A stretch of DNA of 61,056 nt from a virus, in the IMG/VR virus record IMGVR_UViG_3300027498_000004, positions 1-61,056 of that record; one strand, 5' to 3'. Below are positions 1-61,056 of the stretch, one piece after another. The notes beneath the pieces were generated by a model that ran no database searches, was not told the DNA's origin, and was given only the letters and a program-made list of their open reading frames with translations. How positions within the stretch are numbered: the stretch's first letter is position 1; each line of letters starts with the position of its first letter. The position numbers were made by a program, and so were the translations under genes.

Positions 1-310
1 CGATTGCAGCTATTGCAGCTATTGCAGCTATTGCCGCTCTTGCAGCTATTGCAGCTCTTGCAGCTATTGCAGCGATTGCAGCTATTGCAGCGATTGCAGC
101 GATTGCAGCGATTGCAGCGATTGCAGCTATTGCAGCTATTGCAGCTATTGCCGCTCTTGCAGCTATTGCAGCTCTTGCAGCTATTGCAGCGATTGCAGCT
201 ATTGCAGCGATTGCAGCGATTGCAGCGATTGCAGCTATTGCAGCTATTGCAGCTATTGCAGCTATTGCCGCTCTTGCAGCGATTGCAGCGATTGCAGCTA
301 TTGCAGCGAA
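1..310 (+). repeat. 9-bp tandem repeat array (TGC-AGC/CGC/CGG-KAT/TCT/AAT units), 3' part; continues from 60819-61056
   Basis: Read directly: 34 consecutive 9-nt units in frame 2. Higher-order repeat 5-121 vs 122-229 (108 bp identical). The 89-mer 1-89 recurs at 118-206 and 60968-61056. Confidence 0.95.
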
Positions 311-670
311 AAAAATGGTAAAGAAAAAAATTCTGATTCTAAAGTTCTACCATTCGGTATAATTCCTAAAATAGAAAACTTGCATCAAAAAGTTCTTGAA
401 GAAGTCTCTAAAGAAGGTCAAGAATTAAATATGAATAATTGGCATACCTGTTCCACAACTCATTGCAGAGCTGGTTGGATAGTTCACATTGCAGGTCAAG
501 AAGGTTATGACTTAGAAAGAAAAACAGATAGTTCTTTTGCTGCTCAATTAATTTTAAGAGAATCAACAGATATACCAATTGGTTTACATAAATTCTTTTG
601 GGATAAAAAAAGCTCAATGTCTGACATAATTAGATGTGCGGAATTAGAAAAGTCTAATAATAAATTGTAA
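2..670 (+). CDS. Cys-x-x triplet-repeat protein, 3' portion (same gene as 60687-61056 across the circular junction)
   Basis: Frame 2 is open from base 2 to TAA 668-670 with no start codon. It is in phase with the ORF starting at ATG 60687 once the 89-bp overlap is removed. The TTG start at 380 in the ORF track is an artefact. Confidence 0.8.
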   Translation, partial: DCSYCSYCSYCRSCSYCSSCSYCSDCSYCSDCSDCSDCSDCSYCSYCSYCRSCSYCSSCSYCSDCSYCSDCSDCSDCSYCSYCSYCSYCRSCSDCSDCSYCSEKNGKEKNSDSKVLPFGIIPKIENLHQKVLEEVSKEGQELNMNNWHTCSTTHCRAGWIVHIAGQEGYDLERKTDSSFAAQLILRESTDIPIGLHKFFWDKKSSMSDIIRCAELEKSNNKL

Positions 671-3985: not shown

Positions 3986-4058
<73 letters not shown>

Positions 4059-15097: not shown

Positions 15098-15188
15098 TAT
15101 GTCAATTCTAACATATCATATCAATTCCAATTAGAATATTTTATTACGAGTCCGTTATTATTGTCGTAGATAAATGACAAAGTAGTTT

Positions 15189-16307: not shown

Positions 16308-16374
16308 GATCCTTTACACTAGACAAGAAACATTATTTTTTAAATACATCTAAGAACTTCTAATATACACCAAT

Positions 16375-17589: not shown

Positions 17590-17617
17590 ATATTAAGGAT
17601 TACTAAATAAAATCACA

Positions 17618-17809: not shown

Positions 17810-17839
17810 ATTAAATTACTCACTGCAAATCTGTAAAAT

Positions 17840-18424
17840 ATGCCTTGTGTTGAAGAGAATGTATTATTGGACTTAAAGACATCTAAGAATTGTAATCTTA
17901 GAGGTGGAGTTCAGTGTGCTTTTTATAATAAGTACGATAATATCGACTGGGATGCCATGAAGGACGATCCTGCTTTATTTGATCAAGCAAATCAATGCAT
18001 CTTAGGCTATGCGCTTAATGCTGATGCACAACCTTTCGCATGCTTAGAGTTCGAACGTAAGACTTCGACCTACTCAGCAACATATACAAAGGATGCTGGT
18101 GTTTATGAGTCTATCTTTACACTTAACTTCAAGGGTAAGGGTAAGGAGCTGAGAAATGCTCTGTGCGACGCTATCCAGTGCTGCAGATTGATCATTCATA
18201 TCTTTGACAACAACTGCGAGGAGAGAGTATTTGGTGTAGAGTGGACTAAGACGGACTTCGTAGAAGATATCGAACCATTCGAAATCATAAGACACTTGGA
18301 TCAGGGTGGACTCTTAGGGTCTACAGAGCCAGGGGATGAGATAGACTTCGGTGGAGAGAGCCTTTGCCCACCATTGTACGGACAAGTTGGTTCAAAGGAT
18401 ACATTCACAGCACTTTACACATAA
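17840..18424 (+). CDS. hypothetical structural protein (194 aa)
   Basis: ORF track; lies in the head/tail-joining module. Confidence 0.65.
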   Translation: MPCVEENVLLDLKTSKNCNLRGGVQCAFYNKYDNIDWDAMKDDPALFDQANQCILGYALNADAQPFACLEFERKTSTYSATYTKDAGVYESIFTLNFKGKGKELRNALCDAIQCCRLIIHIFDNNCEERVFGVEWTKTDFVEDIEPFEIIRHLDQGGLLGSTEPGDEIDFGGESLCPPLYGQVGSKDTFTALYT

Positions 18425-18433
18425 TAGACTATC

Positions 18434-18694
18434 ATGGCATTTGAATTTACGGATACAGCAAACAAGCAACCAGTCCTTATCGCAATAGGTAACAAAGCAG
18501 ATGGTTATAAGAAGTTTGTCTTTGGTGGTACCAAGGCAGTGACAAAAACTCCTCAAGGGAAACCTCCGAGAGAGTATAAGCTGGCTGGACAAACAGAGAT
18601 GAAGGATCTACATGAAAGAACTGAAGGTAAAACCAAGTTAGTTCAAAAGAAAGAGACTGCATCTGGTGGAAGCAATAAGCCTGCAAATACATAA
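18434..18694 (+). CDS. hypothetical protein (86 aa)
   Basis: ORF track. Confidence 0.6.
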   Translation: MAFEFTDTANKQPVLIAIGNKADGYKKFVFGGTKAVTKTPQGKPPREYKLAGQTEMKDLHERTEGKTKLVQKKETASGGSNKPANT

Positions 18695-18724
18695 AATATC
18701 ATACCTTAGATATAAATTTAATGA

Positions 18725-20050: not shown

Positions 20051-20744
20051 TACACTACTCCAACCACAAGATATCAAAGAGCATATTGGTATAATGAGCT
20101 CTATGGCTGCGTGTGAGCTGAGGCACATCCGAAAGGTCGAGCTATTGCAATTTAGAGAGTGCCTGGGTAAGGCTTTCTATGACTACCTGAAGGATCACTT
20201 AACCGATGTGAGCAAATGTACGAACTGGTGCGAGTATGACGACCAGGGAGAGCCGAAGTACTACCAGGAGGGAGATATCGTAGTATATGACGGCATTCTA
20301 TATGTAGCATGTAAAACAACCAAGGCGATTCCAGTAGTAGAGGGTGAATGGAAGCTGGTCCAGAAGTTTACAAAGGACTGCCTCAATGAGCTCTGGTGCG
20401 ATTATCTATGCGAATACTTAGCATGGGAGGTATTTAAGAACAGAGCTCCATACTTGGGCATAAGAATCGGTCCAGATGGATATATCAAATCAACAGGTCG
20501 GGACTTTGTACCAGCCGACTATAAGGATAAAGAATTCCTCTCCAGGACCATTGATCGCGATGTTTGCATTGCCTGGGATAACCTGGAGGACTTCTTAAAA
20601 GAAAATGAGAGTGGCTGCTTTGATCTATTCAAAGGAAATGCGAAGGGATCCTGTGGATCGTGTGGATGCTTAGATAAAAAGTGTACGTGTCAAAAAGACT
20701 GCGGAGACGCTAAGAGAACAAAATATAAGAGACGGATTGGTTGA
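20040..20744 (+). CDS. hypothetical Cys-rich protein with a CBM5/12-like segment
   Basis: ATG 20040 is in the ORF-track frame (the track start at 19974 overlaps the portal-like gene). YYQEGDIVVYDGILYVACKTTKAIPVVEGEWKLV resembles carbohydrate-binding W/Y motifs. Confidence 0.6.
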   Translation: MAHNTLLQPQDIKEHIGIMSSMAACELRHIRKVELLQFRECLGKAFYDYLKDHLTDVSKCTNWCEYDDQGEPKYYQEGDIVVYDGILYVACKTTKAIPVVEGEWKLVQKFTKDCLNELWCDYLCEYLAWEVFKNRAPYLGIRIGPDGYIKSTGRDFVPADYKDKEFLSRTIDRDVCIAWDNLEDFLKENESGCFDLFKGNAKGSCGSCGCLDKKCTCQKDCGDAKRTKYKRRIG

Positions 20745-21096
20745 TCTAATAAAAAAGAGGCTCAGGGAGCACACTGTAAATTATATCGGTAATATAGTTA
20801 CTGCAGGTCAAGAGCTTGTTTCTCCAGAGCATGAGAAAGCGAGACGGGACATCTGTAAAGGGTGCGATTTGCTTGAAATGGTTACTCTTCCACCTGTCCC
20901 TTGGATCGGTCCAATACAGGTTCCAGGGTGCGGAGGATGCAAGTGCCCAATAAAAACTAAACCCAAAGCTGTCAAGTATCGGAATTTTAAAGATGGTAAA
21001 CCGTTAGAGATAAAGACGAACATCTGTCCTCATCCAGATGGAAACAAATGGGAGGACGTAGACAATAAATATTTTTCAAGTAAAAATCCAAAGTAA
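20737..21096 (+). CDS. hypothetical Cys-rich protein (119 aa)
   Basis: ORF track; TTG start overlapping the previous stop. CKGC...CGGCKC motifs. Confidence 0.55.
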   Translation: MVDLIKKRLREHTVNYIGNIVTAGQELVSPEHEKARRDICKGCDLLEMVTLPPVPWIGPIQVPGCGGCKCPIKTKPKAVKYRNFKDGKPLEIKTNICPHPDGNKWEDVDNKYFSSKNPK

Positions 21097-21097
21097 A

Positions 21098-21847
21098 ATG
21101 AGAGTTCCAATTTTAAATATGTTCCTTTTAGCAGCAAATATGCTCGGACGCCTTAGAGCGAATCCTGCAGCATGCCCAACAAACAGCATGAAGCTTCCAG
21201 CTTGCAATGACTGTACTGATGATCCAGTATGCGAAGACGTAATCACCCTTACAAAGGATGAAGGAAACGTTCTTGTATCTATTGACATACAAGGTGAGAC
21301 TTGTCCTGTCAACTTACCGTTGAATGATCCGAATATCGAAACTAAGCTTCATGAAATCGTAGCTAAGTATGAGATCGATACTCATGTTTCAGTTGCTGTT
21401 GAAGATGGCAAGTGTACAATCCGACACATCGGTGCTGGTACTCTTGACAACGCAGTAGTTGGAAACAAGACTTATAATACAGAGCGATGCTGCAACTTCG
21501 TTACTGTTACCACTTACAAGACTTATGCGACAGGTACTTTGCCAGACCTTAAGTATGTAAATGCTGATGGTGTTGAAACGAGTGAGGCATTTCCAAATAG
21601 TCCTTATGACTATGCAGGAACGGCAGCAGTGGATGCTGCAACAGCTGCTCAATTAGAGACAGACCTTATCGCTGGACTTGATGCGATTGCATATCCATAC
21701 ACTTCAGCCACTGTGACTGTAAGTGATGATGATGAAGGATTTTTCCTTTGTGTTGAATCAGATGGTTCTATTCCAGTTATGATTGGAAGCCTGCCATTTG
21801 CAAACTGCGGAAGTGAAGGAGCTTTCGTTTGTGGTGAGGATAAGTAA
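21098..21847 (+). CDS. hypothetical Cys-rich protein (249 aa)
   Basis: ORF track; tight spacing. Confidence 0.7.
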   Translation: MRVPILNMFLLAANMLGRLRANPAACPTNSMKLPACNDCTDDPVCEDVITLTKDEGNVLVSIDIQGETCPVNLPLNDPNIETKLHEIVAKYEIDTHVSVAVEDGKCTIRHIGAGTLDNAVVGNKTYNTERCCNFVTVTTYKTYATGTLPDLKYVNADGVETSEAFPNSPYDYAGTAAVDAATAAQLETDLIAGLDAIAYPYTSATVTVSDDDEGFFLCVESDGSIPVMIGSLPFANCGSEGAFVCGEDK

Positions 21848-21874
21848 TTAGTAATCGCATAATAAACCAATATA

Positions 21875-23053
21875 ATGCCTGGTAAAACTTGCAATATCAT
21901 ACTTGTGACGATAGCACACTGTTTCATACGCATCAAGAATACGTGCGATGGATCAGTATGCTATGCCACTGGTATAAGCAAATGTGTCGGTAATAACATT
22001 GTCTTTTCAATACAAGGTGGAGGTTCACTAAATGTCAATTATACAGATATAGCGAATCATGGTTTTGATAACATCGAAGATTTTAAAGAAGATCTACTTG
22101 CCGAATTAGAAGCTTGCTCAAACAATGTTACTCTGGAAGGCGATGTCATGTTGCCTGACGATATAGAGGTCCAGCTTGAGAAGTTTGGTACCACTTCATT
22201 TCCAATGTGCAGAAAGTCTGACGGTGAAAATTGCCAGATCATATATTGCGTTGAGGAAGGCGTGGAAACTTATCAGGAGGCTGGAACTACTATTAAGTTG
22301 ACGCCAGCTCAATTTTTAACTGCATACGAGAAGTGCAAGCCAGCAAAGACGTTCATTGATCGGGGTTGCTACTATTTGACATCAGAGGAAGATCTACCAG
22401 CTCAAAAAAGGAACTATGTTCTGTTTGATCAATATACTGATGGCACTCAAGTGTGCACAGTTCCTGCAGGGGAAGCACCTGCAGCGGATGGAAGTAATTT
22501 CGTAACCAATATAAATGAATATACTATGGCTTCAGATAAGCTTGGGTCACTGCCCGTATTGAACAGTGAGATTAAAACAAAGAAAGGGCGAGCACTTGAC
22601 GTATGTGGTGGTGCAGCTGGATTTGAATTGACAGTAGCGATACTTTTAGCAGCAGCATCTGTTGTTGATGACTTGGCATCGTTGGCTGCAAAGATCATTC
22701 CTGAGCCTGGATACAAGTGGGACTTGTTAGGATTCGAAGTGAACCAACACCCTGCTAAGAAATTAGTGCATTGTGATATTGCTGATGCAGAAGGTACTGT
22801 AAGTTCAAACGAACAGGCATTCTATGCTTTAGGAGGCGACACAAAGCAATTCATTACCGTTGGAGATTCCAAGGATACTATCATGAAGCTATTACCAGAT
22901 GCGGATGCATGTGGATGCCTTGGTGATCCTACATGTCTGCTTACAGATGCGGATCTAACAACACCGTTGACTTTGGCTGCTAATACAGCTGTTGAAGTAT
23001 GTCCAATCTTCGTCTGCGTTATCGATCCAGATGCGAAGAGAGAAGAAGCATAA
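21875..23053 (+). CDS. hypothetical Cys-rich protein (392 aa)
   Basis: ORF track. Confidence 0.7.
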   Translation: MPGKTCNIILVTIAHCFIRIKNTCDGSVCYATGISKCVGNNIVFSIQGGGSLNVNYTDIANHGFDNIEDFKEDLLAELEACSNNVTLEGDVMLPDDIEVQLEKFGTTSFPMCRKSDGENCQIIYCVEEGVETYQEAGTTIKLTPAQFLTAYEKCKPAKTFIDRGCYYLTSEEDLPAQKRNYVLFDQYTDGTQVCTVPAGEAPAADGSNFVTNINEYTMASDKLGSLPVLNSEIKTKKGRALDVCGGAAGFELTVAILLAAASVVDDLASLAAKIIPEPGYKWDLLGFEVNQHPAKKLVHCDIADAEGTVSSNEQAFYALGGDTKQFITVGDSKDTIMKLLPDADACGCLGDPTCLLTDADLTTPLTLAANTAVEVCPIFVCVIDPDAKREEA

Positions 23054-23070
23054 TAATTATTGAATAAATA

Positions 23071-26000
23071 ATGATACAACTGATGAAACATAAAGCCTTA
23101 CTCATAACAGCCATACTATTGTGGGTAAGGCTTTTGTCTTTTGCACAACTCGGAGGAGTTGAGAACTGGTTTCCTGCATGTGATACCTTAACAGGAGAAG
23201 TGATCTATATCCAGCAATCGGAGCTGATCGATGACTGCTGCTGGGAGTGGAATGGAGATAACTGGGAGAAAAGAGAAAACTGCGATAATGTAGATTCAAA
23301 CTGCATTGAAACTTCTATCTATACCGAGGAGCTTTGCTATCATGGCATCTTTCACTGGTATGACAACACAACTCCCTCAAACGGAGCCTGTGGCCTTGTA
23401 TCGGCAAACTATGGTCTCAATCCAAATGAAACGACCTGGATAGGGTTTGAAAACAAATGCGATATATATGATCCATTTATCGGGCACACCAATACTGCTC
23501 CGAATCTAAATGGATACTTCGATGATATGAATGATTACTTGACGGCTAATACCGACTCCGAGTGGGTATGGGGTTTAAATACTCCCGATAAGTGCTGGAG
23601 ATACTTCTCCACTATATCAAAGGATGAATGTTACGGAACGTGGACTTTGGACTATAAAGGAAATGAAGTGACAGTAGTTCCAAGAAGGGAATATAAAAAA
23701 TGCGAAATAACAAAGAAGGTCTGCGAATATAAGATGGACGGTCAAATCATCACTGATGAGTTCTTTTACGGAACAGATGTCGATGGTAATGATTCTCTAT
23801 TGCTAGACCTTCCCCAATATATAATTGATTGCACTGGATGGGATCCAGTAGTAGTCAATAAGATTTATCAGGATAATGGCGATGTGATTAATTGTTTAAC
23901 TACAGATTGCACCGAGAGAACTCTTACTGAAATAGAGAATCCATGTCCAATACAATCTTATGGTCCTTTTTGCGATTATGATTACAATGTAGAGACTGAT
24001 GAGTGTGTAATAAATGCAACGGAAATATACCTTGATATCGATTGTAATGGTGTGAACTGGTTTTATACTATCTCCGAAGATGGTGTTACGCCATACGAGG
24101 AGCCTGTTGGCGAGATAGGGAACTGCGATTGTACACAGATCGTAACAGAGCCTCAAGGATGCCCTGAAGGACTGAACTGGCAGTGTGTAACTACAGGCGA
24201 GAGCAGCTATGGTATACTTGACAACTCATTGTATACTAATCTTCCAACTAATCACCTGCAGAACGGTAACAACTATGAATTCACTCTTTTGCACGAGGAT
24301 GGTACCACTACTGTGATCCAGCAATCAGCAAATACATATTTTGGGAACTTTAGAACGATATTAGAGGCAGCATTGCCAGAATGTAAGGTCGTCTATGTGT
24401 GTGCAAATCATACAAGCCCGAACGGATGCAATGCTGGCTTTGTGAGTAACTTGGCACAATATCCTGCATACGATGCGCCAACGGCTCCTGGAGATGTACA
24501 GAACAATCTCAACAATCCAGCACAGTCCGAGTTATGGGCCACAGGTTGGTTGATAGACTGCCAGTCGTGCGTGAGTCCTATTACCAGGGTGACAATTACA
24601 AATGCAAATGACGCTTCTCATATAGGAGCCTTTAAGGATATCATCAATTATAAAACACCAGGAGAGCAAATCTTCCAAGCAGTTGATTGTGGGAAGATCT
24701 ACTATCAAAGCTGCGATAATCCTCCAGTTGCCCTTGAAGCACCAGACTGTAAGCCAACTCTTTGTCCAGCAGGAATATCAGATGATGAAATAGAAGACCA
24801 ATGCACAACATCTTCTATTATAGGATGTGTCGATGATAAGACTTTGCTTTTAGTTATTGAGACCTGTAAGGTGGATACAACTGGATTAGATTGTAATCCT
24901 GATGAGTTGACAGTATTGTATGCTTCAGATGAATTTGAGGGTACTCCTGGAATAACACAAACTGCAAATGGATGGGATCAACTCACATTTGGAGATAATA
25001 AAACTGGAGCAACATCTCAAACACAAGCAACATCGGATGTTGCTAATGCAACGGGGCCAAGTGCAGCTGGAATATTGGGTGTTTCAAATTGTGGAGATAC
25101 TCACATGCAATCCTTAATTGGAGGTACTGGAGCGACTGTATTTGGTGAAGGTTTAAAAAAGACATTTACAGGATTGACTATTGGAGCTCAATTGTGCATT
25201 GACTTTTCTCAAGCAGTATCTAATCAAACAAATGGATGTTTTGATAGAGGAGGCTGGACAGTATGCCTTGATGATAACTTAGCTTCCGCACAAAATTCGG
25301 CTGAGACAATTGATCCAGCACAGGAGACCAATCCAACAAATCCAAATTTGAATTGGGAGAATAGAAATGCATGCTTCAACATAACAGCAACTACGCATAC
25401 TTTATCCTTGACTCCTTATTCAACTGATCAAGACTATACTTGTGGGAATTGGCTTGGAAGGATGGCTATTGATTGTGTTGAGGTAACTGAATCAAGCGCA
25501 GGAGGTTCAAATGATCCGCTTTGTTCTTGTGCTGAAATAACATGCGTAACTGATCCAGTAACAGGAGACAATTATGATATTGAAGATATCTCTTTGGTAC
25601 CATGTGGAACTAATGATGTGTGTTTCGATATAGAGCAAAGTTCAGAACTTGTTTGTATTAATGATGGATTAGAAAATATACTTGCTTTTGCGGTTAATGA
25701 AATATTAGCGGACTGTATAACTGGTGAACAAGTAGGACAAAATAACTATTTCACAGATTTAGAAGGGAATACATATAATTCTACAGATGTTACATTTAGT
25801 GAAGATTGTGAAGGAGTAGTCATTGAAGGTCAAGTTTGTACAAATGGTGAAACATTAAACACCCTTACAATAGATGGAGTTACAACATATTATGACTTAG
25901 GAGGAAATCAAGTGATCAAGATTGGTACAATTGATTATGTTGGGGCATGTATTGAGCCGACAAGTATATTTAAATGTTGTGCTGTTAATTTTGGTAATCA

Positions 26001-26787
26001 AATCGAAGGATTTATAAATGTTGGAGAAGGAGGATATTACATCACTGATTTTCAAGGCAACATTCTCCCTGAAGCTGAGCCTTTCGATTGTGAAAGTTGT
26101 ATTCAAGTATTTGGATGCAGAGATGGAAGACTTGCATGGCCAGCAGGAAGCGTAGTAACGATGTCTAATGGTGATCAATTAGATATATCGGGACTTAGAT
26201 ATACACAAGTTGCTCAATTAATAGTTGATACTTATGGAGGGAGCTATGAAGCTCCAAGTCTAGGTGGACCAATGGGTGCAAACTTTTCACAATGTCAAGG
26301 TAGCTCTCAACATGAACTTCAGTTCTACAATTTGCCAGTTGCAATCGTATCCATTGATGAGATGGATAACTATGGAAAATTTGGACAATGTGGAGCTAAT
26401 GAAATAGCAGATGTTAATTGGGATTATTGTGTGAATGGTAAAAAGGTCAAACTGATTACTTATTTAGATGGATCTACAAGCATAATTGATCCTTCGAATA
26501 ACTCAAGTATTAATGGAGTTCTTGGATGCTGTGATTGTGAAGCTGTTGATTGTGGTCAAGGCTGTGAAGTGACTGAAGGAGGAGGTATACCAGGAGAATC
26601 GTTTATTGTTAGTTGCGAGCTCTCTTGTCAAGTTGGCGATAATATAATCATATACAATGAAGACTGCTCTGTGAAGTGCACAGGGACTATTTCTGGATTT
26701 GGTCTAGATGGCCAAGGTGGAACTAAAATACAACTATCGAGTAGAGATTGCTTTCCAATTATAGGACAAACTGTAAGCTGTGAATAG
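23071..26787 (+). CDS. very large Cys-rich protein with an N-terminal signal peptide
   Basis: 1238 aa. N-terminus MKHKALLITAILLWVRLLSFAQ (alternative ATG at 23086). Dozens of Cys throughout. Confidence 0.8.
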   Translation: MIQLMKHKALLITAILLWVRLLSFAQLGGVENWFPACDTLTGEVIYIQQSELIDDCCWEWNGDNWEKRENCDNVDSNCIETSIYTEELCYHGIFHWYDNTTPSNGACGLVSANYGLNPNETTWIGFENKCDIYDPFIGHTNTAPNLNGYFDDMNDYLTANTDSEWVWGLNTPDKCWRYFSTISKDECYGTWTLDYKGNEVTVVPRREYKKCEITKKVCEYKMDGQIITDEFFYGTDVDGNDSLLLDLPQYIIDCTGWDPVVVNKIYQDNGDVINCLTTDCTERTLTEIENPCPIQSYGPFCDYDYNVETDECVINATEIYLDIDCNGVNWFYTISEDGVTPYEEPVGEIGNCDCTQIVTEPQGCPEGLNWQCVTTGESSYGILDNSLYTNLPTNHLQNGNNYEFTLLHEDGTTTVIQQSANTYFGNFRTILEAALPECKVVYVCANHTSPNGCNAGFVSNLAQYPAYDAPTAPGDVQNNLNNPAQSELWATGWLIDCQSCVSPITRVTITNANDASHIGAFKDIINYKTPGEQIFQAVDCGKIYYQSCDNPPVALEAPDCKPTLCPAGISDDEIEDQCTTSSIIGCVDDKTLLLVIETCKVDTTGLDCNPDELTVLYASDEFEGTPGITQTANGWDQLTFGDNKTGATSQTQATSDVANATGPSAAGILGVSNCGDTHMQSLIGGTGATVFGEGLKKTFTGLTIGAQLCIDFSQAVSNQTNGCFDRGGWTVCLDDNLASAQNSAETIDPAQETNPTNPNLNWENRNACFNITATTHTLSLTPYSTDQDYTCGNWLGRMAIDCVEVTESSAGGSNDPLCSCAEITCVTDPVTGDNYDIEDISLVPCGTNDVCFDIEQSSELVCINDGLENILAFAVNEILADCITGEQVGQNNYFTDLEGNTYNSTDVTFSEDCEGVVIEGQVCTNGETLNTLTIDGVTTYYDLGGNQVIKIGTIDYVGACIEPTSIFKCCAVNFGNQIEGFINVGEGGYYITDFQGNILPEAEPFDCESCIQVFGCRDGRLAWPAGSVVTMSNGDQLDISGLRYTQVAQLIVDTYGGSYEAPSLGGPMGANFSQCQGSSQHELQFYNLPVAIVSIDEMDNYGKFGQCGANEIADVNWDYCVNGKKVKLITYLDGSTSIIDPSNNSSINGVLGCCDCEAVDCGQGCEVTEGGGIPGESFIVSCELSCQVGDNIIIYNEDCSVKCTGTISGFGLDGQGGTKIQLSSRDCFPIIGQTVSCE

Positions 26788-27607
26788 AATTATTATAGGC
26801 ATATTATTATTGTTTCCTCTTTTTGCTTTTAGCCAAGAGTTTGACTTGTCAGATTGTTGTGATAGATCATCTGAATCACAAGTGCTTGATCTTGAGTTTA
26901 AAACTATATACCAAGAAGAGTTTGCTGGTGGAGCCAATGGCAAACTAGGTTCTAATATATGGACTAGAAATAGTACTGTAGTTCAAACAGCAGAAGGACA
27001 ATTCACAGTCACCTTCGATACGCCACATCCTGATGGAGTTTTTTATCATATTAGCTATGAAGGCATTGAGGATAATTTAAGAGACAATCCAAAAGTGACT
27101 ACAATAGAAGGAACTAAGTCAGCAAATGGATTTCAAGTTATGATAACTGTAGATGATAATGGTGCTGGTGCAGATATCTATGAAGATAACGGATGGTCAT
27201 TTTCTGTTGCTGCTCCTTGTGAGGTTTTAAGCAACGCAAGTTTATCGCAAGGAGGGGATGCTGGATCAGATAATGAAGGCTCTCCTTCCTTACCAGCAGC
27301 TAATGGAAAAGTTGTCTCTGATAATTTTCAAGATCAGCAGTTTGTTCCTTTCAATCTTCAAGTAAGAAATACAACAAATGCTCCAGTGCAATGGGAGGCA
27401 TACTTACAGAGTGTTCCATATTGCACAATACCAAATATTACTTATCCACAAGGTTTTACAGCTGTGCTTGTTACCACAAATAATATAGATGGAACTTGCA
27501 ATCACTTATTTAGTGGATCTTTGCCAGCATTTGAAAATATTGAAATTAAGGCAGATGTAGTTTTGCCATTTGGTAATCAATCAGGATTAACTCTATACTG
27601 TCAATGA
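26780..27607 (+). CDS. exported protein (signal peptide MNRIIIGILLLFPLFAFSQ)
   Basis: GTG start overlapping the previous stop. Typical n-h-c signal region. Confidence 0.7.
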   Translation: MNRIIIGILLLFPLFAFSQEFDLSDCCDRSSESQVLDLEFKTIYQEEFAGGANGKLGSNIWTRNSTVVQTAEGQFTVTFDTPHPDGVFYHISYEGIEDNLRDNPKVTTIEGTKSANGFQVMITVDDNGAGADIYEDNGWSFSVAAPCEVLSNASLSQGGDAGSDNEGSPSLPAANGKVVSDNFQDQQFVPFNLQVRNTTNAPVQWEAYLQSVPYCTIPNITYPQGFTAVLVTTNNIDGTCNHLFSGSLPAFENIEIKADVVLPFGNQSGLTLYCQ

Positions 27608-28071
27608 GAAAGATAATAATAATCACAGCAATTATATTTGCATCAATTACTGCCCAAGGGCAAAACTACTTTGAGTGGGTGATGCCAACTGAAAAAGGAG
27701 ATGTTTCATATTTACTTTTAACAGATCAGGGATATGAAACCTTATTAAAGCCTTTGCAAATACAAGATAGTGGAGATTTAGCTGAGGAGCTACTGACTAT
27801 GAGGGCTGAGATCACCAATAATAGAGAGTTGATCGATAAGCTATATTCTATAATTAAAGATTTACAAAATCAAGAATCTAGTTTAAGTGAGACTTCACAA
27901 AAAATTCTTGATTGTCTTAGAGATGATACTGAGAATCAAATTAAGGCTAGGGGATTCACAATTGCACAATATAAGCAATTTGCTTTTGAATTAGAGTTTG
28001 ATATTAAGGAACGGAAAGAAGATGCAATAATCAATGAGTTGAAAGACTGGTACAAATCAAATAATCAATGA
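27604..28071 (+). CDS. exported protein (signal peptide MRKIIIITAIIFASITAQGQ)
   Basis: ATGA overlap. The N-terminus is paralogous to the next ORF. Confidence 0.75.
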   Translation: MRKIIIITAIIFASITAQGQNYFEWVMPTEKGDVSYLLLTDQGYETLLKPLQIQDSGDLAEELLTMRAEITNNRELIDKLYSIIKDLQNQESSLSETSQKILDCLRDDTENQIKARGFTIAQYKQFAFELEFDIKERKEDAIINELKDWYKSNNQ

Positions 28072-28478
28072 GAGTAATTATAATAATAGCAATACTAGCA
28101 TTCTCTTTCAATGCGCAGGCACAGCGGTACTTTGTATCTGAAAAAGAAAATTCGACTCAATATTGGGTTCTTGATAGCCTTAGTGCTTCAAACTTTAATC
28201 TTGGGAAGGAAATTGCAGAGTCTACTTATAAAAGTATGCAAGTATCAGAAGAGACTAAGATTAATGAGCAGATATCTGTAATTGATACTCCAATAGCTAA
28301 GGAGATAAATCTTCTTAAATCAATTGCTCCTAATGCGACATTTATATTTAAAAGGTACAATTTGTCAAACTCAAATAAAAATGGATTCTCGCTGAGGGAA
28401 ATAGCGACAGAATTAAAGATTGATCATTTAAATAAAAGAAAAAAGGACTTGTCCTATGAGATATATAATACTTTTTAG
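28068..28478 (+). CDS. exported protein (signal peptide MRVIIIIAILAFSFNAQAQ)
   Basis: ATGA overlap; signal peptide. Confidence 0.75.
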   Translation: MRVIIIIAILAFSFNAQAQRYFVSEKENSTQYWVLDSLSASNFNLGKEIAESTYKSMQVSEETKINEQISVIDTPIAKEINLLKSIAPNATFIFKRYNLSNSNKNGFSLREIATELKIDHLNKRKKDLSYEIYNTF

Positions 28479-29184
28479 TTTTTTACTTTCATTCATATCA
28501 GTAAGCGCACAACAAGTAAGTGATGAGTGTGCAAACTGCTTCACATGTACACAGCTAATGCAGTGCTTCGGTGATGTAGTATGTGCCGACTGTGATGTAG
28601 AAAATGAAATACAAACTTTTTCTAGTCCTGGAGGCACAATTGTATTTAGCCAATCAGATCCATTAAATATAAAGATGGATGTTAATCTAGAATGCTGCGA
28701 AGTATTGTGTGCATCTACACCTGCGCTTGGAACGCAAGCAAGTATAAGTGGTGTAAATGTAGGTTCTCCATTTATAAGCGATCCCTTCAGCATAATTACA
28801 TTAGCAAATGCCAATTCTTGTGAAGCTGTTGCAGATATAGATATCGCCTTTCCAGATGTAGACATTATTTTAATTGATGCGTATGTAGAAGTTAGAGGTC
28901 AATATCAAATTTTAGTGAACGGAGCAGCAGTTGAGGGATGGGTAGATTCAAGAAGAATAAGATTCGATAGAAGAAGTGTTACAGGTGGGCCACACCCTAG
29001 ACAAACGCTTGGCAGTAATTTCAATATAGGAAAAATATATGTTGCTCCAGGAGATGTTATTCAAGTTCAACAAAGAGTTGTTGTGGTCAAATTAAATGAT
29101 AATAATGCCTTTGATGATATTATAAATATAGTCAATGGTCAATCAAAAATAAGTTTATATCCAAGGTTCATTTACGCAAAATAA
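28456..29184 (+). CDS. exported Cys-rich protein (signal peptide MRYIILFSFLLSFISVSAQQ)
   Basis: ORF track; signal peptide. Confidence 0.75.
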   Translation: MRYIILFSFLLSFISVSAQQVSDECANCFTCTQLMQCFGDVVCADCDVENEIQTFSSPGGTIVFSQSDPLNIKMDVNLECCEVLCASTPALGTQASISGVNVGSPFISDPFSIITLANANSCEAVADIDIAFPDVDIILIDAYVEVRGQYQILVNGAAVEGWVDSRRIRFDRRSVTGGPHPRQTLGSNFNIGKIYVAPGDVIQVQQRVVVVKLNDNNAFDDIINIVNGQSKISLYPRFIYAK

Positions 29185-29196
29185 AAATTACTTAAG

Positions 29197-31488
29197 ATGA
29201 AAAATAGAATATTTACAATAGTGCTTTTACTCTTTGCCTGCAGCTTAAGTGCTCAGAAGTTTGGAGTATCAGGTTTTGAATGCCATGTAAAAAAGAAAGT
29301 TACAAACTTTCAATGCTCAAGCTGTCCTACTGGTACTACAACTATGTGGTTAAACGGATTAGAGATTAAGAGACCTGGTCAAGGAAATGACTTCTTGCAA
29401 GCTCCAATATTTCTTTCTAAAGCAAAGGGAGGTAATGTTGTCTTAACTGGAAACGATGGTACATATACTGAGTTTAAGAAGCCTCAAGGCATGAGCTTCA
29501 ATGATATCAATGATGAAATTTGTGATTGCAATAAGGCTGTATTAGCTGGATTTGATCCAGATGAAGATCCAATGAATGAAATTCAAGCAGTCACATCTGA
29601 TGATGGGAGCATAACTGTCATACCTAACGGTATAGATTTTGATTTAAGTGTGAACTTTCCCGAATGTTTAGACTGTGATCCTACAAATGAAAATGTTATT
29701 GAAGTATCAATCACAGATGAAGATGGCGATGGTGTTTATGATGTTGTTATAACAAATGCAGATGGCACTACCGTAGATACTACTTTTGAAATTCCACCTA
29801 GTGTATTTGTTCCAGCATTTACTGAAGGAGTTTCAATAGGTGTGCATACTAATGGGCTTGGTGATGATGTAGAAGTATTTATTCCTGAGTGTTTAGATTG
29901 TGATCTTACTAACGAAATACAAAATATTTCATCTCCTGATGCAAGTATAATAGTAACTCCAAATGGGAATGATTTTGAAATAACAGTTCCAAGTGGAGGA
30001 GGTAACACTTCAAGTGTAAGTACACAAGTTGATGGAGATGGAAATACAATATACACACATGATGATGGTGATCCCGCTACACCTTCTGTCGATTGGTGTT
30101 TAGGAGGAAAACTTGTAGATCACTCTGGAGCAACTTTAGATTTAAATTGTAATGATATATTATTTAATGAAGATATTTCTTTAACAGATGATACAAATCT
30201 AAACACTCCAAATGGAATTGGTGTATCGGGTGCGGAATTTTCAGATAGTCCTATTAATGGGCATACAACCGAAACACGAATTGCAAACATAGTTTCAAGT
30301 AACGGTGATAATTCTGCTTTATGGTCCATCCTATCTGGTATAGCCAATGTTAATGCAGTAGGTGGAACAGGATCATTTGTAACTGGTACTGCCAACACAG
30401 TAGACGGTGCTTTTTCAATTACAGGCGGTCTATTAAATAATATGGCTGTTGGTAATGGTACTGCTCGAAGAGGCATATTATTAATGGGTAGAGCTAATAC
30501 AGTAAGTGGAACAGCTGGATATTCTCTAATTGGTGGAATTGCAAATATAGCAGCAGGCAATAGTAGAGGATCTATGATGGTGGGTAACACTAATATAAAC
30601 GAAGGTACATTTTCATCTATTCATGGTACTACGAATCAAAACAGGCCTGGTGGTGGTAACTCCTTAGTTGGCGGTTCTAGTAATATTAATGATGGTTTGC
30701 AGAATATAGTACATGGTACATTAAACGAGAACTATCAAAGGCAGTCTTTTGTAACAGGTGGATTTAATATTGTCAGTAGTAATAACGTGGCTGCTTTCCC
30801 AAATGGAGGTAATACATCAATTACTGCAGGACAGAGGAATATGCAATACTCGCAAGCTACTCTGATGGTTGGCGAAGATAACATTGCATGGGATGAATCA
30901 CCAAGATCAATAATTAGTGGTGCTTTAAATACTATCAAGTGTCAGGATTGTATTGTAACTGGTCAGAATAACGACTTGCCTTTTGATATGAGAAGAAGTG
31001 CAATCATAGGAGGTAATGATATTGAACCTCAAATTATTGAGGTTGATCAAGTTTACGTTCCACACTTACATATATGGGGAGGAAATGCTGCTCCTGGTAA
31101 TTCTACAGGCACAGCAGGTATGACAGGACCAAATGCTTATCCTGGAAATCCAACAGATTTATTAGCAGCTGATCCCAATGATGAATATGAAGTTAAAAAG
31201 GTAGCAACAGCAACATTGGGTATTGGATCAATGCGCAATACAAAAGAAAATATAAACCCCACTGGTGATGAACTTTTAGAATGGTTAAAATCAAGTGAAG
31301 TTGCATATTGGAATTATCTCGATGATGATATTAATCATGTTGGAGTGATGGCTGATGACTTCGGTAAGCTTGGATTGGGTACATCTGAAGAGACTATTTC
31401 TTTTGCAGATCAAATGGGAGTATTAATGGGTATAGTTAAGGCTCAACAAAAAGAAATCGAATTACTAAAACTTAAAATTAACGAATAA
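29197..31488 (+). CDS. tail-fibre-like protein with N-terminal signal/lipoprotein peptide and C-terminal S74 intramolecular chaperone domain
   Basis: N-terminus MKNRIFTIVLLLFACSLSAQ. Duplicated ECLDCD(P/L)TNE / NEIQ modules. C-terminus SMRNTKENINP...INHVGVMADDF...GIVKAQQKEIELLKLKI matches the endosialidase-chaperone pattern. Confidence 0.7.
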   Translation: MKNRIFTIVLLLFACSLSAQKFGVSGFECHVKKKVTNFQCSSCPTGTTTMWLNGLEIKRPGQGNDFLQAPIFLSKAKGGNVVLTGNDGTYTEFKKPQGMSFNDINDEICDCNKAVLAGFDPDEDPMNEIQAVTSDDGSITVIPNGIDFDLSVNFPECLDCDPTNENVIEVSITDEDGDGVYDVVITNADGTTVDTTFEIPPSVFVPAFTEGVSIGVHTNGLGDDVEVFIPECLDCDLTNEIQNISSPDASIIVTPNGNDFEITVPSGGGNTSSVSTQVDGDGNTIYTHDDGDPATPSVDWCLGGKLVDHSGATLDLNCNDILFNEDISLTDDTNLNTPNGIGVSGAEFSDSPINGHTTETRIANIVSSNGDNSALWSILSGIANVNAVGGTGSFVTGTANTVDGAFSITGGLLNNMAVGNGTARRGILLMGRANTVSGTAGYSLIGGIANIAAGNSRGSMMVGNTNINEGTFSSIHGTTNQNRPGGGNSLVGGSSNINDGLQNIVHGTLNENYQRQSFVTGGFNIVSSNNVAAFPNGGNTSITAGQRNMQYSQATLMVGEDNIAWDESPRSIISGALNTIKCQDCIVTGQNNDLPFDMRRSAIIGGNDIEPQIIEVDQVYVPHLHIWGGNAAPGNSTGTAGMTGPNAYPGNPTDLLAADPNDEYEVKKVATATLGIGSMRNTKENINPTGDELLEWLKSSEVAYWNYLDDDINHVGVMADDFGKLGLGTSEETISFADQMGVLMGIVKAQQKEIELLKLKINE

Positions 31489-31769
31489 TGAAATATTTAG
31501 CTGTTATAATTTTACTCGCAATTTCAACTATTGCATATTCTCAAACTGTGCAAGAGGTATGGGTACATAGTATTGACAATGAAGGATTTGAAGAAAAACA
31601 ATATCATGTATTTGATGAATCTAGAAAGTTGGTAGGTAAATTTTTTCCTTCTCAGGATAATGATGAGCAAACAAGAAAAAGAGCTGAAGACTTTGCGAAA
31701 AAATTTAAGCCTGTAATCATTAATGAAACAAAGCCTATTTTAAGAAAAAAGGAAACAAAAAATAAATAG
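31488..31769 (+). CDS. small exported protein (signal peptide MKYLAVIILLAISTIAYSQ)
   Basis: TAATG junction; signal peptide. Confidence 0.7.
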   Translation: MKYLAVIILLAISTIAYSQTVQEVWVHSIDNEGFEEKQYHVFDESRKLVGKFFPSQDNDEQTRKRAEDFAKKFKPVIINETKPILRKKETKNK

Positions 31770-31771
31770 TG

Positions 31772-32683
31772 ATGAGGTATCTAACTATAATATTTGTACT
31801 GCTGTCATTTAATCTTCACTCACAAGAGTTTTGGTATGAAGATTCAAACATAGGAGTAGCAGCAGGATTCCCCAACGACTTTGCAGAAATGTGGAGGCAA
31901 CCTTGTATGTGGCAAGATATTAGATCTAAGACTGATGTATACATGATAAGAGGTATTTCACTATCTAACTTTGTAAATCAATATGGTGAAAAGTTCTTAA
32001 CTGATACACTTGCAAAAGTATTGGTTGATAACGGGTTAAGTTTAGCAATTGATAATCCCCCATCCAACTTTGAGCACTTATATAACTTGCTGACTGGAGC
32101 TGGAGTTAATATCACACACATAGCAATACAGAGTGCCTTATCGAGACCGAGAGAGTTTTCTCCTAGATATAATCCTGAATTAGAACTTAGGATAGGAGAA
32201 GTTAAAAGTCAAATATTGCAGTTTGAGAAGTTTGCTCCTAATGCTCAATATGGAATTATAGATGCTCGTCCAACTAAAGGTTGGGATTATGAATATGCAT
32301 ACAGGAGACTCAAAAAAGTATTAAGAAATGGTGGAAGCAATCTAGATTTTATAATTTTAGATTGCCCTTACGGATTCCCTAAATATGGAAATAATTTGAC
32401 ATTTCAAACGCTCAAGAATATTGAGAGTTATGTTAAAGATAATTTGAATCTAAACTATGGATTCATTATTACTGACAACTTTGGTGGTAAACATTCAGAG
32501 CAAAGTTTTCATGATGGTGTACTAGATTATGGAAGAGATTGTATAGCTAACGGATTAAATCCCGACTATTACATTTTAATGTCTTGGTATGCTTATCCAA
32601 AAAATGCTCTACCAGAGAAACCTCTTAGAGGAGGATATTCAATGACAAAAACTGGCTTAGCCTTATTTGATATCCTTGATTAG
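31772..32683 (+). CDS. exported protein (signal peptide MRYLTIIFVLLSFNLHSQ)
   Basis: ATG at 31772 (the track uses GTG 31769). 303 aa; no catalytic motif recognised. Confidence 0.75.
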   Translation: MRYLTIIFVLLSFNLHSQEFWYEDSNIGVAAGFPNDFAEMWRQPCMWQDIRSKTDVYMIRGISLSNFVNQYGEKFLTDTLAKVLVDNGLSLAIDNPPSNFEHLYNLLTGAGVNITHIAIQSALSRPREFSPRYNPELELRIGEVKSQILQFEKFAPNAQYGIIDARPTKGWDYEYAYRRLKKVLRNGGSNLDFIILDCPYGFPKYGNNLTFQTLKNIESYVKDNLNLNYGFIITDNFGGKHSEQSFHDGVLDYGRDCIANGLNPDYYILMSWYAYPKNALPEKPLRGGYSMTKTGLALFDILD

Positions 32684-32885
32684 ATTAATCTACATACTGC
32701 CCTTTTTACTATATCCGAGTGATAACACAGTTTACTCACTTGATATAGTAAAAAAAGAGGGAGAACTTGTTTTGAGGTATGATAGTTATGGAATGTCGGA
32801 TGAGCAAGCAATGAAAATATATAGAGCTATGATTTGTGAAGAAATTGAATTAAAAAGAGTTCAACTAGAAAAATACGATAAGTGA
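32667..32885 (+). CDS. hypothetical protein with a hydrophobic N-terminus (TTG start, uncertain)
   Basis: ORF track only. Confidence 0.4.
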   Translation: MISLIRLIYILPFLLYPSDNTVYSLDIVKKEGELVLRYDSYGMSDEQAMKIYRAMICEEIELKRVQLEKYDK

Positions 32886-50717: not shown

Positions 50718-50986
50718 TTGCTGAAATACCAAAAATGCAAAAGCGCACCCTGGAGAAGCACCAACGCAATCTGCAGATTAGGAAAGCCAATATTGAAAAA
50801 GCTCTCAAGAAGCTAACTGCAAAATATACCAGATACGATTATGTTGGTATAAAAATTGATTGTGTTGGTGTGAAAATGGGTGTGGATCTACATGCGAAAA
50901 ATATCGTCAAGATATTAGAATCACAGAATACCGAATACACCCTCATACTTATTGAAATCTCAAAAGAATTAAACCTTAGAAAATGA
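50708..50986 (+). CDS. hypothetical protein (92 aa)
   Basis: ORF track; overlaps both neighbours. Confidence 0.6.
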   Translation: MVLIAEIPKMQKRTLEKHQRNLQIRKANIEKALKKLTAKYTRYDYVGIKIDCVGVKMGVDLHAKNIVKILESQNTEYTLILIEISKELNLRK

Positions 50987-52140
50987 AAAATGTAAAAAGT
51001 AAATTGTGTATTGGCTGGATCCTGTTTCTCTGGATCGCTTCTGCTTATGTAATAGTTGCTCAGGTAGATACTATCACCATACAGCCTGGACAAAGTGTTG
51101 TAATTGTATCTTCGGAGCAGGCAGTGCAAGAACCAGAGCCCGAACCAGTCGGGACGCAGTTCTATGTGAATACAACCAACAACATCGATCACTATCCAAA
51201 TTTAAGAGGGAAAGGTGCTCGATACTTCTGGAATGTAGAACATGATCTCCCCTTTAATGGTATCCTCCAGAATGGTGGGAAGATGGCAAAGAACCACACC
51301 TTTATTCCTACAAATGAAATGAACGATTGCATTGGAGTAGATTACAATGGATCGATGTGCGACAATGCAATGCGAGTTAAAAAGTTGAGCAATCAATTTG
51401 ATATCGTAATGGTGGTCCCCCAGGCTGTGAAGAATCCGTTTGACTTCTGGCTCAATTGGCCCAACAAATTTATTGCCATGTGGATATGGGGTGATACTGG
51501 TGGATTGCAATACGCAAAAATAAAAGAACACTTCCTGGCATTGCTCTGGTCGACTCATGGAAATATAGACTTTGTTCAGATAGCCAATGAGCCCTGGGGG
51601 ATGAGTCCTGCCCAATATAACATTGTTGAATCTGCAAGAGTAGATGCATGGCTGGAGTACAATACAAGCCAAGGTCTCTCTTTAGATGATTATGAGCAGT
51701 TCACTCCGAAGTTAGTCACAGCAGCAATGCCAATCGGTCAAGGACTGCAGACAGAGCTCTCCTTCCAGAACCTAGCAAACTCAAAGTTTGCAAAGTACTA
51801 TTACAGCGTTGCAGTACATGGATACAATAGAACGCCAATGAGCGAGTGGAGTAGTGATGCAAGTATCACGAATGAAATAATAGATATGGCTTTAGAGTTC
51901 TGCAGGGTTTATATGCCACATTGCAGTTTACAGATCACTGAGACTGGAGCTCCCAATGATATCATCGATCAACATATCCAGTCATTAAAAGCTAAGACCA
52001 GCGAGGAAGAGGGCATCGATATAGTTTGGTTGTATAATTTATTCAGTGATGGATCAGATATATTTAAAAATAGCTTCTTCTTGAGTGATGATGGCGTACC
52101 TACTGAAGCAGCAATTAAATATAATATCATCACGAACTGA
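50983..52140 (+). CDS. secreted clan GH-A-like glycoside hydrolase (tentative)
   Basis: Signal peptide ...WILFLWIASAYVIVAQ. Candidate acid/base IANEPWG and nucleophile LQITETGAP. Confidence 0.45.
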   Translation: MKNVKSKLCIGWILFLWIASAYVIVAQVDTITIQPGQSVVIVSSEQAVQEPEPEPVGTQFYVNTTNNIDHYPNLRGKGARYFWNVEHDLPFNGILQNGGKMAKNHTFIPTNEMNDCIGVDYNGSMCDNAMRVKKLSNQFDIVMVVPQAVKNPFDFWLNWPNKFIAMWIWGDTGGLQYAKIKEHFLALLWSTHGNIDFVQIANEPWGMSPAQYNIVESARVDAWLEYNTSQGLSLDDYEQFTPKLVTAAMPIGQGLQTELSFQNLANSKFAKYYYSVAVHGYNRTPMSEWSSDASITNEIIDMALEFCRVYMPHCSLQITETGAPNDIIDQHIQSLKAKTSEEEGIDIVWLYNLFSDGSDIFKNSFFLSDDGVPTEAAIKYNIITN

Positions 52141-55738: not shown

Positions 55739-55772
55739 CTATTGTATATATGGAATAGTTAATGTATATTTG
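55739..55772 (+). promoter_or_regulatory. early promoter, site C (TTG-N20-TATATTTG)
   Basis: CTATTGTATATATGGAATAG (55739-55758). Perfect -7 box at 55765-55772. Confidence 0.6.
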
Positions 55773-55785
55773 AAAAAAGGTAATT

Positions 55786-56019
55786 ATGGCTTCAAAAGCA
55801 GAAATATTCACAGACGGCTTCCATATCACATCAACAAATAGTGGTCTGGTTTGGCTGAAAAAGAAATTCCACGCATCAAACTTTTTTCAAACATCTGAAG
55901 ATCAACTGGCATTTACTGTACCAGGCAAAAAGCTCTTGGATAGTTTTCCAGAGGTGTTCACTAGGATGAATGAACGACTATACTATTTCGAATTACAAAG
56001 GCTGAGAGGCAATTTATAA
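55786..56019 (+). CDS. hypothetical protein (77 aa)
   Basis: ORF track; first gene after promoter C. Confidence 0.65.
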   Translation: MASKAEIFTDGFHITSTNSGLVWLKKKFHASNFFQTSEDQLAFTVPGKKLLDSFPEVFTRMNERLYYFELQRLRGNL

Positions 56020-56031
56020 TTTAAGATCATA

Positions 56032-56102
56032 GGTACCATGTCCGAGTGGCTAGGAGTTGGTTTGCAAAACCAATCACATCGGTTCGAATCCGATTGGTAT
56101 CT
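56032..56102 (+). tRNA. tRNA-Cys (anticodon GCA)
   Basis: Folded by hand: acceptor GGUACCA/UGGUAUC, D arm UCC-GAGUGGCUA-GGA, anticodon arm UUGGU-UUGCAAA-ACCAA, variable loop UCAC, T arm AUCGG-UUCGAAU-CCGAU, discriminator U73. Confidence 0.85.
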
Positions 56103-56127
56103 CGGTTAGACTCTAGTTTTTTGTTGG

Positions 56128-56173
56128 CAGGATCGCCATACCTTCTCAAGGTCATTGGTGGTCCTGTTTTTTT
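56128..56173 (+). terminator. strong intrinsic terminator after tRNA-Cys
   Basis: CAGGATCGCCA pairs with TGGTGGTCCTG (11 bp including 2 G-U). Inner ACCTT/AAGGT stem, then T7. Confidence 0.75.
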
Positions 56174-59679: not shown

Positions 59680-59713
59680 CTATTGCATATATACAATACT
59701 TAATGTATTATTG
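59680..59713 (+). promoter_or_regulatory. early promoter, site D (TTG-N20-TATTATTG)
   Basis: CTATTGCATATATACAATAC (59680-59699). -7-like box at 59706-59713. Confidence 0.55.
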
Positions 59714-59735
59714 TATTGAAAGAACAATTTGATAT

Positions 59736-59771
59736 GAGGGCGGTTTCAGGTGTGGGATCGCCTTCTTTTTT
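59736..59771 (+). terminator. terminator/attenuator hairpin in the leader about 20-25 nt downstream of promoter D
   Basis: GAGGGCG (59736-59742) pairs with CGCCTTC (59759-59765), then T6. Located 20 nt before ATG 59792. Confidence 0.5.
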
Positions 59772-59791
59772 CGAACAATTAAAAAGGTAAC

Positions 59792-60686: not shown

Positions 60687-61056
60687 ATGCAAAAAACATT
60701 GATTTTTAAATCGTATGCTGAATTTCTAAAAAGAGAAGATAAATCTATCAATGGTGTATCAAAATCATTTAGCGAAAAACGTTCAGACTATAAGCAAGAT
60801 AATTCAACAAATAATGGTTGTTGGAATTGCCGGTCTTGCAGCTATTGCAGCGATTGCAGCTATTGCAGCGATTGCAGCGATTGCCGCAATTGCCGGTCTT
60901 GCAGCTATTGCAGCGATTGCAGCTATTGCAGCGATTGCAGCGATTGCAGCGATTGCCGCGATTGCAGCGATTGCAGCTATTGCAGCTATTGCAGCTATTG
61001 CCGCTCTTGCAGCTATTGCAGCTCTTGCAGCTATTGCAGCGATTGCAGCTATTGCA
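60687..61056 (+). CDS. Cys-x-x triplet-repeat protein, 5' portion (runs off the window end; continues at 90-670)
   Basis: ATG 60687, 44 unique codons (MQKTLIFKSYAEFLKREDKS...NSTNNG), then CWN-CRS-CSY-CSD... units to the last base. No stop codon. Confidence 0.8.
   Translation, partial: MQKTLIFKSYAEFLKREDKSINGVSKSFSEKRSDYKQDNSTNNGCWNCRSCSYCSDCSYCSDCSDCRNCRSCSYCSDCSYCSDCSDCSDCRDCSDCSYCSYCSYCRSCSYCSSCSYCSDCSYC
60819..61056 (+). repeat. 9-bp tandem repeat array, 5' part (26 full units plus the start of the next)
   Basis: Read directly: TGT TGG AAT, TGC CGG TCT, then TGC AGC TAT/GAT units. The last 89 bp equal 1-89. Confidence 0.95.

What the first reader, a model, noticed from the sequence alone, without database searches (positions are those of the whole stretch)
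56032..56173. Phage tRNA-Cys(GCA) in a genome with extreme cysteine demand
A well-formed tRNA-Cys is present, with anticodon GCA and discriminator U73, the main CysRS identity element. It sits in a compact unit: promoter C (55739-55772), a 77-aa ORF, the tRNA, then a strong terminator (56128-56173).

The genome encodes the 51-unit Cys-x-x protein, in which 50 of the 51 Cys codons are TGC, the exact cognate of GCA. It also encodes a series of very Cys-rich late proteins at 10387-11988 and 20040-29184. Cys is normally among the rarest amino acids. A dedicated phage tRNA-Cys plausibly relieves a decoding bottleneck created by these genes.
Basis: partly seen in the sequence, partly recalled or inferred. 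Interest (0 to 1): 0.6.

Follow-up and report, generated by a model that had tools for sequence, protein, structure and literature searches.

The report
Cysteine tRNA in cysteine-rich phage

Summary
The tRNA-Cys(GCA) is real (56032-56102, U73, no encoded CCA). It lies in a unit with a Bacteroidota housekeeping-type promoter, a 77-aa orphan gene and a strong terminator.

The demand is real. Cys is 2.15% of codons without the repeat, against 0.6-1.4% in five Bacteroidota genomes and 0.56-0.95% in twelve cultured flavobacterial phages, and it is the most enriched amino acid. Eleven low-Cys relatives lack tRNA-Cys; two unrelated Cys-rich phages carry one.

Parts of the argument fail. GCA is also the host's anticodon and reads both Cys codons, so the TGC match means nothing. 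The repeat holds 13% of Cys codons, and phage FL-1 has a 36-unit orthologue with no tRNA. Phage phi13:2 has a lone tRNA-Cys at host-level Cys. Close relatives fill this promoter slot with RadC/JAB.

The anticodon loop has U32, while 155 of 155 matching Bacteroidota genomes have C32, so nuclease evasion stays open.

Verdict: an ordinary phage tRNA, probably topping up a single-copy host tRNA. The scan had not noted this stretch on other DNA.

The parts
55742..55772 (+). Bacteroidota sigma-A-type promoter (TTG, 20 nt, TAnnTTTG box at 55765-55772)
   Evidence: consensus in PMC9723704. Activity inferred.
55786..56019 (+). 77-aa orphan ORF, no Cys codon, no homologue found
56032..56102 (+). tRNA-Cys(GCA): anticodon 56064-56066, U32 at 56062, U73 at 56102, G15-C48, CCA not encoded
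56126..56173 (+). intrinsic terminator hairpin and T-run
   Evidence: z = -6.4
3986..4058 (-). second tRNA, initiator-type Met(CAT), 89% identical to host copies and with a host-type anticodon loop; own promoter of the same family at 4096-4066 and a terminator hairpin within 3915-3960
   Evidence: absent at the syntenic site of relative L018
10387..23053 (+). Cys-rich virion genes (3.1-3.8% Cys; putative major capsid protein 16375-17589 has 12 Cys in 404 aa)
   Evidence: capsid identity inferred from its position after the prohead protease
23071..32885 (+). Cys-rich block of signal-peptide proteins (3.4% Cys, TGT-biased)
60687..61056 (+). 5' part of the Cys-x-x repeat gene (continues at 90-670 after the 89-bp overlap)
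90..670 (+). 3' part of the Cys-x-x repeat gene

Best explanation
A functional phage tRNA-Cys tops up the host's usually single-copy tRNA-Cys for a phage whose virion and exported proteins are cysteine-rich. Host sigma-A polymerase transcribes promoter, ORF and tRNA early (inferred). Host RNases and the CCA-adding enzyme mature it (inferred; no CCA is encoded). Host CysRS charges it through GCA and U73 (identity elements shown in sequence; charging inferred). The stable tRNA then serves both TGC and TGT during late translation (inferred). The compensation is for an amino acid, not for a codon. The gene is a recent, dispensable addition in a variable early slot, and the Cys-x-x repeat is a minor part of the demand.
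For: Cys is the most over-used amino acid against hosts (odds ratio 3.2), and Cys is the only elongator tRNA in the genome. Twelve cultured flavobacterial phages have 0.56-0.95% Cys. Eleven family relatives at 0.72-1.37% Cys, five rated at least 90% complete, have no tRNA-Cys. Two phages without detectable virion homology to this one pair high Cys with a small tRNA set that includes Cys: G302, 2.31%, complete, Met + degenerate + Cys; G311, 1.77%, Cys the only tRNA in a 49-kb record. Four of 11 small-set tRNA-Cys phages exceed 1.7% Cys against 0 of 14 without it, Fisher p = 0.026. All but two of 155 host genomes show one match.
Against: On ranks the same comparison is not significant (Mann-Whitney p = 0.14); the sets were hand-picked, differ in host, and the 1.7% threshold was chosen after seeing the data. 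Cellulophaga phage phi13:2 has a lone tRNA-Cys at 0.69% Cys; G307, G313 and G304 carry it at 0.52-0.77%. Relatives L224 and L225-227 have RadC/JAB in this promoter slot, and sister phage L018 keeps 28/28 and 25/25 late-gene cysteines. These are fragments, so a tRNA elsewhere is not excluded. More tRNA does not supply more cysteine, and no cysteine-synthesis gene turned up. No expression data.
Confidence: 0.5

Rival explanations
1. Counter-defence: the tRNA replaces a host tRNA-Cys destroyed by an anticodon nuclease or toxin during infection. The C32-to-U32 change and the diverged stems would make it a poorer substrate. A Cys-rich phage would be especially exposed, so this and the supply model can both be true.
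For: U32 is found in 0 of 301 Bacteroidota genomes while C32 is found in 155 with the same pattern; all 30 closest host genes have C32. Among distinct viral tRNA-Cys genes U32 occurs in 5 of 98 (Fisher p = 0.008). A tRNA-Cys-specific nuclease exists: M. tuberculosis VapC4 cuts the anticodon loop (PMC5175351). Loop-mutated phage tRNAs as counter-defence: PMC10264068; tRNA supply as counter-defence shown in PMC11555353. The slot is an early, variable position. phi13:2 has a lone tRNA-Cys with no Cys excess.
Against: My paper searches found no tRNA-Cys-cutting defence in Bacteroidota. VapC4 cuts at positions 34-38 in that paper's numbering, and no role for position 32 appeared in the passages read. 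U32 is normal in E. coli tRNA-Cys (own knowledge), so relaxed selection explains it too. The fMet tRNA keeps the host loop.
Confidence: 0.25
2. Passenger or general booster: one of many tRNAs that phages pick up and lose in variable slots, with small benefit unrelated to cysteine content. The match with a Cys-rich genome is a coincidence noticed after the fact.
For: At least 128 viral stretches match the tRNA-Cys patterns, most within larger tRNA arrays. Both tRNAs of this phage are missing at syntenic sites in close relatives. Seven of 11 small-set tRNA-Cys phages have 1.2% Cys or less.
Against: All seven acceptor pairs and the other stems are intact, though no sampled host gene matches at more than 83% over the full length, which implies selection on function. 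The only elongator tRNA matches the most enriched of 20 amino acids.
Confidence: 0.2
3. Integration relic: the gene is an attP or a captured host attB.
For: tRNA-Cys is an integration target in Bacteroidota: L012 has an integrase-like ORF beside it, and several viral loci with a lone tRNA-Cys carry related integrases.
Against: No integrase among Pfam hits for 71 genes or by tblastn. No second copy longer than 11 nt. The gene is complete, has its own promoter and terminator, and differs from sampled host genes. No family prophage in 301 genomes (that search had no positive control).
Confidence: 0.03

Closest known systems
Lone tRNA-Cys(GCA) of Cellulophaga phage phi13:2 (KC821633, Pachyviridae)
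   Same: A marine flavobacterial phage with a single tRNA-Cys, no encoded CCA, U73.
   Different: phi13:2 has host-level Cys (0.69%) and the host-type C32; this phage has 2.15-2.46% Cys and U32.
Codon-compensating phage tRNAs (Bailly-Bechet 2007 model, as summarised in PMC10264068)
   Same: The tRNA matches codons the phage uses much more than the host.
   Different: The excess is in amino-acid use, not in a synonymous codon, and the anticodon is the one the host already has.
Counter-defence phage tRNAs (mycobacteriophage C1 loop variants, PMC10264068; T5 tRNA-Tyr against retron-Eco7 and tRNA-Lys against PrrC, PMC11555353)
   Same: Own promoter; the anticodon loop differs from the host consensus (U32 against C32).
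   Different: No matching nuclease is known for Bacteroidota tRNA-Cys, and resistance is untested.
Bacteroidota chromosomal tRNA-Cys (closest sampled: G276, 83% over 72 nt)
   Same: Same D-arm type, GCA, U73, G15-C48, usually no encoded CCA.
   Different: U32, an A+T-richer T-stem like other phage copies, and a G2-U71 wobble pair.

Membership tests
Bacterial-type tRNA-Cys | Full cloverleaf above the Rfam tRNA cut-off | tested here: met
   56.7 bits against 29, model 1-71; ARAGORN
Bacterial-type tRNA-Cys | Anticodon GCA and discriminator U73 (major CysRS determinants) | tested here: met
   PMC9976931
Bacterial-type tRNA-Cys | E. coli-type G15-G48 pair (found only in a few species) | tested here: not met
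   G15-C48 as in Bacteroidota hosts; not required outside those species, so it does not affect membership
Bacterial-type tRNA-Cys | Expressed, CCA-added and charged with cysteine | not testable with these tools
   CCA is not encoded; no reads that could show it
Compensating phage tRNA | Cognate codons used more by phage than by host | tested here: met
   TGC and TGT both about 2.5x pooled host level; true host unknown
Compensating phage tRNA | Supplies an isoacceptor the host lacks or a disfavoured synonymous codon | tested here: not met
   Same GCA anticodon as hosts; TGC:TGT is 169:152 outside the repeat
Compensating phage tRNA | Presence tracks demand across genomes | tested here: inconclusive
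   Fisher p = 0.026, Mann-Whitney p = 0.14; counter-examples; Cys-rich relatives are fragments
Anticodon-nuclease-evading phage tRNA | Anticodon loop differs from host | tested here: met
   U32 against C32 in 155 of 155 matching genomes
Anticodon-nuclease-evading phage tRNA | Host encodes a nuclease for that tRNA and the phage copy resists it | not testable with these tools
   Host not identified; nothing found in papers for Bacteroidota
tRNA attP of a temperate phage | Integrase and a host-identical tRNA segment | tested here: not met
Leader-peptide-attenuated phage tRNA unit (earlier scan notes) | Short leader with cognate codons and a switchable terminator before the tRNA | tested here: not met
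   The upstream ORF has no Cys codon and ends 12 nt before the tRNA; the plus-strand terminator lies after the tRNA

The most novel reading that the evidence does not exclude
Several unrelated Bacteroidota phage lineages have evolved cysteine-rich virions and exported proteins and have each recruited tRNA-Cys as almost their only tRNA. That would be compensation for amino-acid composition rather than codon bias; here the U32 loop might also escape an undescribed host tRNA-Cys nuclease.
Probability: 0.25. Interest if true: 0.55.

Novelty: new member of a known kind. Interest (0 to 1): 0.3.

Why it matters
Why phages carry tRNAs is still argued between supply and counter-defence. Cys has one tRNA for both codons, so synonymous bias drops out, and this family spans 0.4-4.3% Cys in the same virion module. 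That makes it a clean natural test once complete genomes of the Cys-rich members exist. The gene itself is ordinary.

Tried and rejected
No RNA holder was listed, so expression was not examined. The scanner for E. coli-type promoters and terminators showed no excess over shuffles and missed this terminator because of its long loop; folding was used instead.

The 77-aa ORF found nothing in Pfam, PHROGs or the 5.8-billion protein set, and its Atlas hits were under 0.9 (homing-endonuclease-like leads only). Single-sequence searches for relatives with the capsid and barrel genes failed; the alignment query worked. No longer contig of L224 was found, and L228 ends just before the slot.

The host could not be named; genome handles carry no taxonomy. 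Endolysin hits point to Flavobacteriaceae phages, and the promoters point to Bacteroidota. Profile searches found no virion homology to G302 or G311, so I treat them as separate lineages.

Rejected: the TGC-cognate argument, the repeat protein as driver, attP, and leader-peptide attenuation. Two scripts had slips: one search used a wrong frame (redone), and the last numbering line was off by one (coordinates were taken). Cys percentages come from simple longest-ORF calls (150 aa or more), and host values rest on 68-80 kb per genome.

Full report
THE GENOME. The window is a whole 61-kb virus record whose ends overlap by 89 bp. The best-matching run is a marine metagenome. A terminase, prohead protease, amidase and a type IX secretion signal domain are present. 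Endolysin hits in Maribacter, Flavobacterium and Cellulophaga phages and TAnnTTTG promoters (consensus in PMC9723704) indicate a Bacteroidota host, which I could not name.

THE OBSERVATION. The tRNA is genuine. ARAGORN and Rfam agree. All seven acceptor pairs form, and GCA and U73, the major CysRS determinants (PMC9976931), are present. CCA is not encoded, as in most host copies. The promoter at 55742-55772 belongs to a family of five plus-strand sites. The terminator is far more stable than shuffles (z = -6.4). A contig from a second study covers 55752-56045 without a difference.

IS THE DEMAND REAL? Yes. Cys is 2.15% of codons without the repeat gene and 2.46% with it. Five Bacteroidota genome samples give 0.62-1.37%, and twelve cultured flavobacterial phages 0.56-0.95%. 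Cys is the most enriched amino acid (2.5x pooled; next is Trp at 1.3x). The excess sits in the late genes (3.1-3.8%), while the rest of the genome is at 0.9-1.2%. These cysteines are conserved: 28 of 28 and 25 of 25 in the sister phage L018 at 81% and 69% identity.

Hosts use the same GCA anticodon, and a single tRNA-Cys serves both codons (stated for M. tuberculosis in PMC13096801; general in bacteria from my own knowledge). The match to TGC therefore carries no information. Outside the repeat, TGC:TGT is 169:152, and the Cys-rich phage G302 pairs a GCA tRNA with mostly TGT. The repeat's 50 TGC codons are copies of mainly two 9-mers, make up 12.6% of all Cys codons, and come with 43 AGC codons for which the phage has no tRNA. 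Flavobacterium phage FL-1 has an orthologue with 36 units (35 TGC), and Vibrio phage 1.238.A one with 22 units; neither encodes any tRNA.

DOES tRNA-Cys TRACK CYSTEINE CONTENT? Partly. Eleven relatives found with the capsid alignment have 0.72-1.37% Cys and no tRNA-Cys; five are rated at least 90% complete; two near-identical ones carry tRNA-Met(CAT). This phage is the outlier on both counts. Two phages without detectable virion homology show the same pairing: G302 (complete, 2.31%) and G311 (1.77%). Among small-set tRNA-Cys phages, 4 of 11 exceed 1.7% against 0 of 14 without the tRNA (Fisher p = 0.026), but ranks do not differ (p = 0.14), and the sample and threshold are ad hoc. Counter-examples exist: phi13:2 has a lone tRNA-Cys at 0.69%, and G307, G313 and G304 carry one at 0.52-0.77%. 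The most informative genomes are fragments. L018 (1.97%), L303 (2.81%) and L304 (4.32%) are Cys-rich members on separate branches of the capsid tree, and their early regions are not held. In the closest relatives that cover this place (L224, L225-227; 62% and 56% identical in the upstream gene), a RadC/JAB gene follows instead of the 77-aa ORF and tRNA. L018 lacks the fMet tRNA at its syntenic site. Both tRNAs are therefore variable additions.

AN UNNOTICED FEATURE. The anticodon loop begins with U32. With one pattern over 301 Bacteroidota genomes, C32 matched 155 and U32 none. Among distinct viral copies U32 is 5 of 98. A host-invariant loop position changed in the phage copy is the pattern described for nuclease-evading phage tRNAs (PMC10264068), and VapC4 shows that tRNA-Cys-specific nucleases exist (PMC5175351). 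But no such enzyme turned up for Bacteroidota, and relaxed selection explains U32 as well.

MECHANISM. Shown in sequence: an intact tRNA with CysRS determinants, a host-type promoter and terminator, a Cys excess in late genes, and mostly single-copy host tRNA-Cys. Inferred: early transcription, host maturation and charging, and a benefit during late translation. I put supply for cysteine-rich late proteins at 0.5, counter-defence at 0.25, passenger at 0.2 and attP at 0.03 (no integrase and no duplicated segment). Supply and counter-defence are not exclusive. Extra tRNA helps only if tRNA, not free cysteine or CysRS, is limiting, and that is untested. The leader-peptide attenuators that the scan noted before tRNA-Cys genes in other phages are absent here.

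VERDICT. Observation confirmed; interpretation partly supported; a new member of a known kind. Phage tRNA-Cys genes are common (at least 128 viral stretches match the two patterns). The value lies in the family as a test case for supply against defence. Interest 0.3.

Noticed in passing
window 3986-4058 (-), promoter 4096-4066: Initiator-type tRNA-Met(CAT) in its own minus-strand unit, in a genome otherwise coded on the plus strand; absent in sister phage L018.
   Followed up: partly
G302, G304, G313, L064, L135: The pair tRNA-Met(CAT) + tRNA-Cys recurs as nearly the whole tRNA set in several unrelated viral records. Both are sulfur amino acids; chance is not excluded because CAT tRNAs are common.
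   Followed up: partly
L304 1-17184, L303 1-18813, L015, window 10387-23053: The virion module of this family ranges from 0.4% to 4.3% Cys, with Cys-rich members on separate capsid-tree branches. Why cytoplasm-assembled virion proteins need so many conserved cysteines is unexplained.
   Followed up: partly
window 59683-59775: A promoter of the same family is followed within about 25 nt by a terminator hairpin and T-run: a possible small RNA of about 55 nt, or an attenuator of the last operon.
   Followed up: no
G302 whole record (L197-L199): Complete 48.5-kb phage with similar architecture (Cys-rich capsid-region genes and a signal-peptide block) but no detectable virion homology; its Met tRNA has G37, and a degenerate tRNA lies beside it.
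   Followed up: partly
L351 1310-1654 (KY421186.2): In phage FL-1 the Cys-x-x reading frame (36 units from 1327) is not the annotated one; the record lists other hypothetical ORFs over it.
   Followed up: partly
L224 1133-2082; L225 2733-3182: RadC/JAB (plus an HNH gene in L224) occupies the promoter slot that holds the tRNA-Cys unit here.
   Followed up: partly
G331 50971-51046 and 66010-66081 (-): Low-scoring tRNA-like sequences with ATA and TTA anticodons, seen only at a relaxed ARAGORN threshold and not by Rfam.
   Followed up: no
L021, L022, L023: Some Bacteroidota tRNA-Cys genes have C38 in the anticodon loop (5 of 30), so position 38 varies among hosts while position 32 does not.
   Followed up: no
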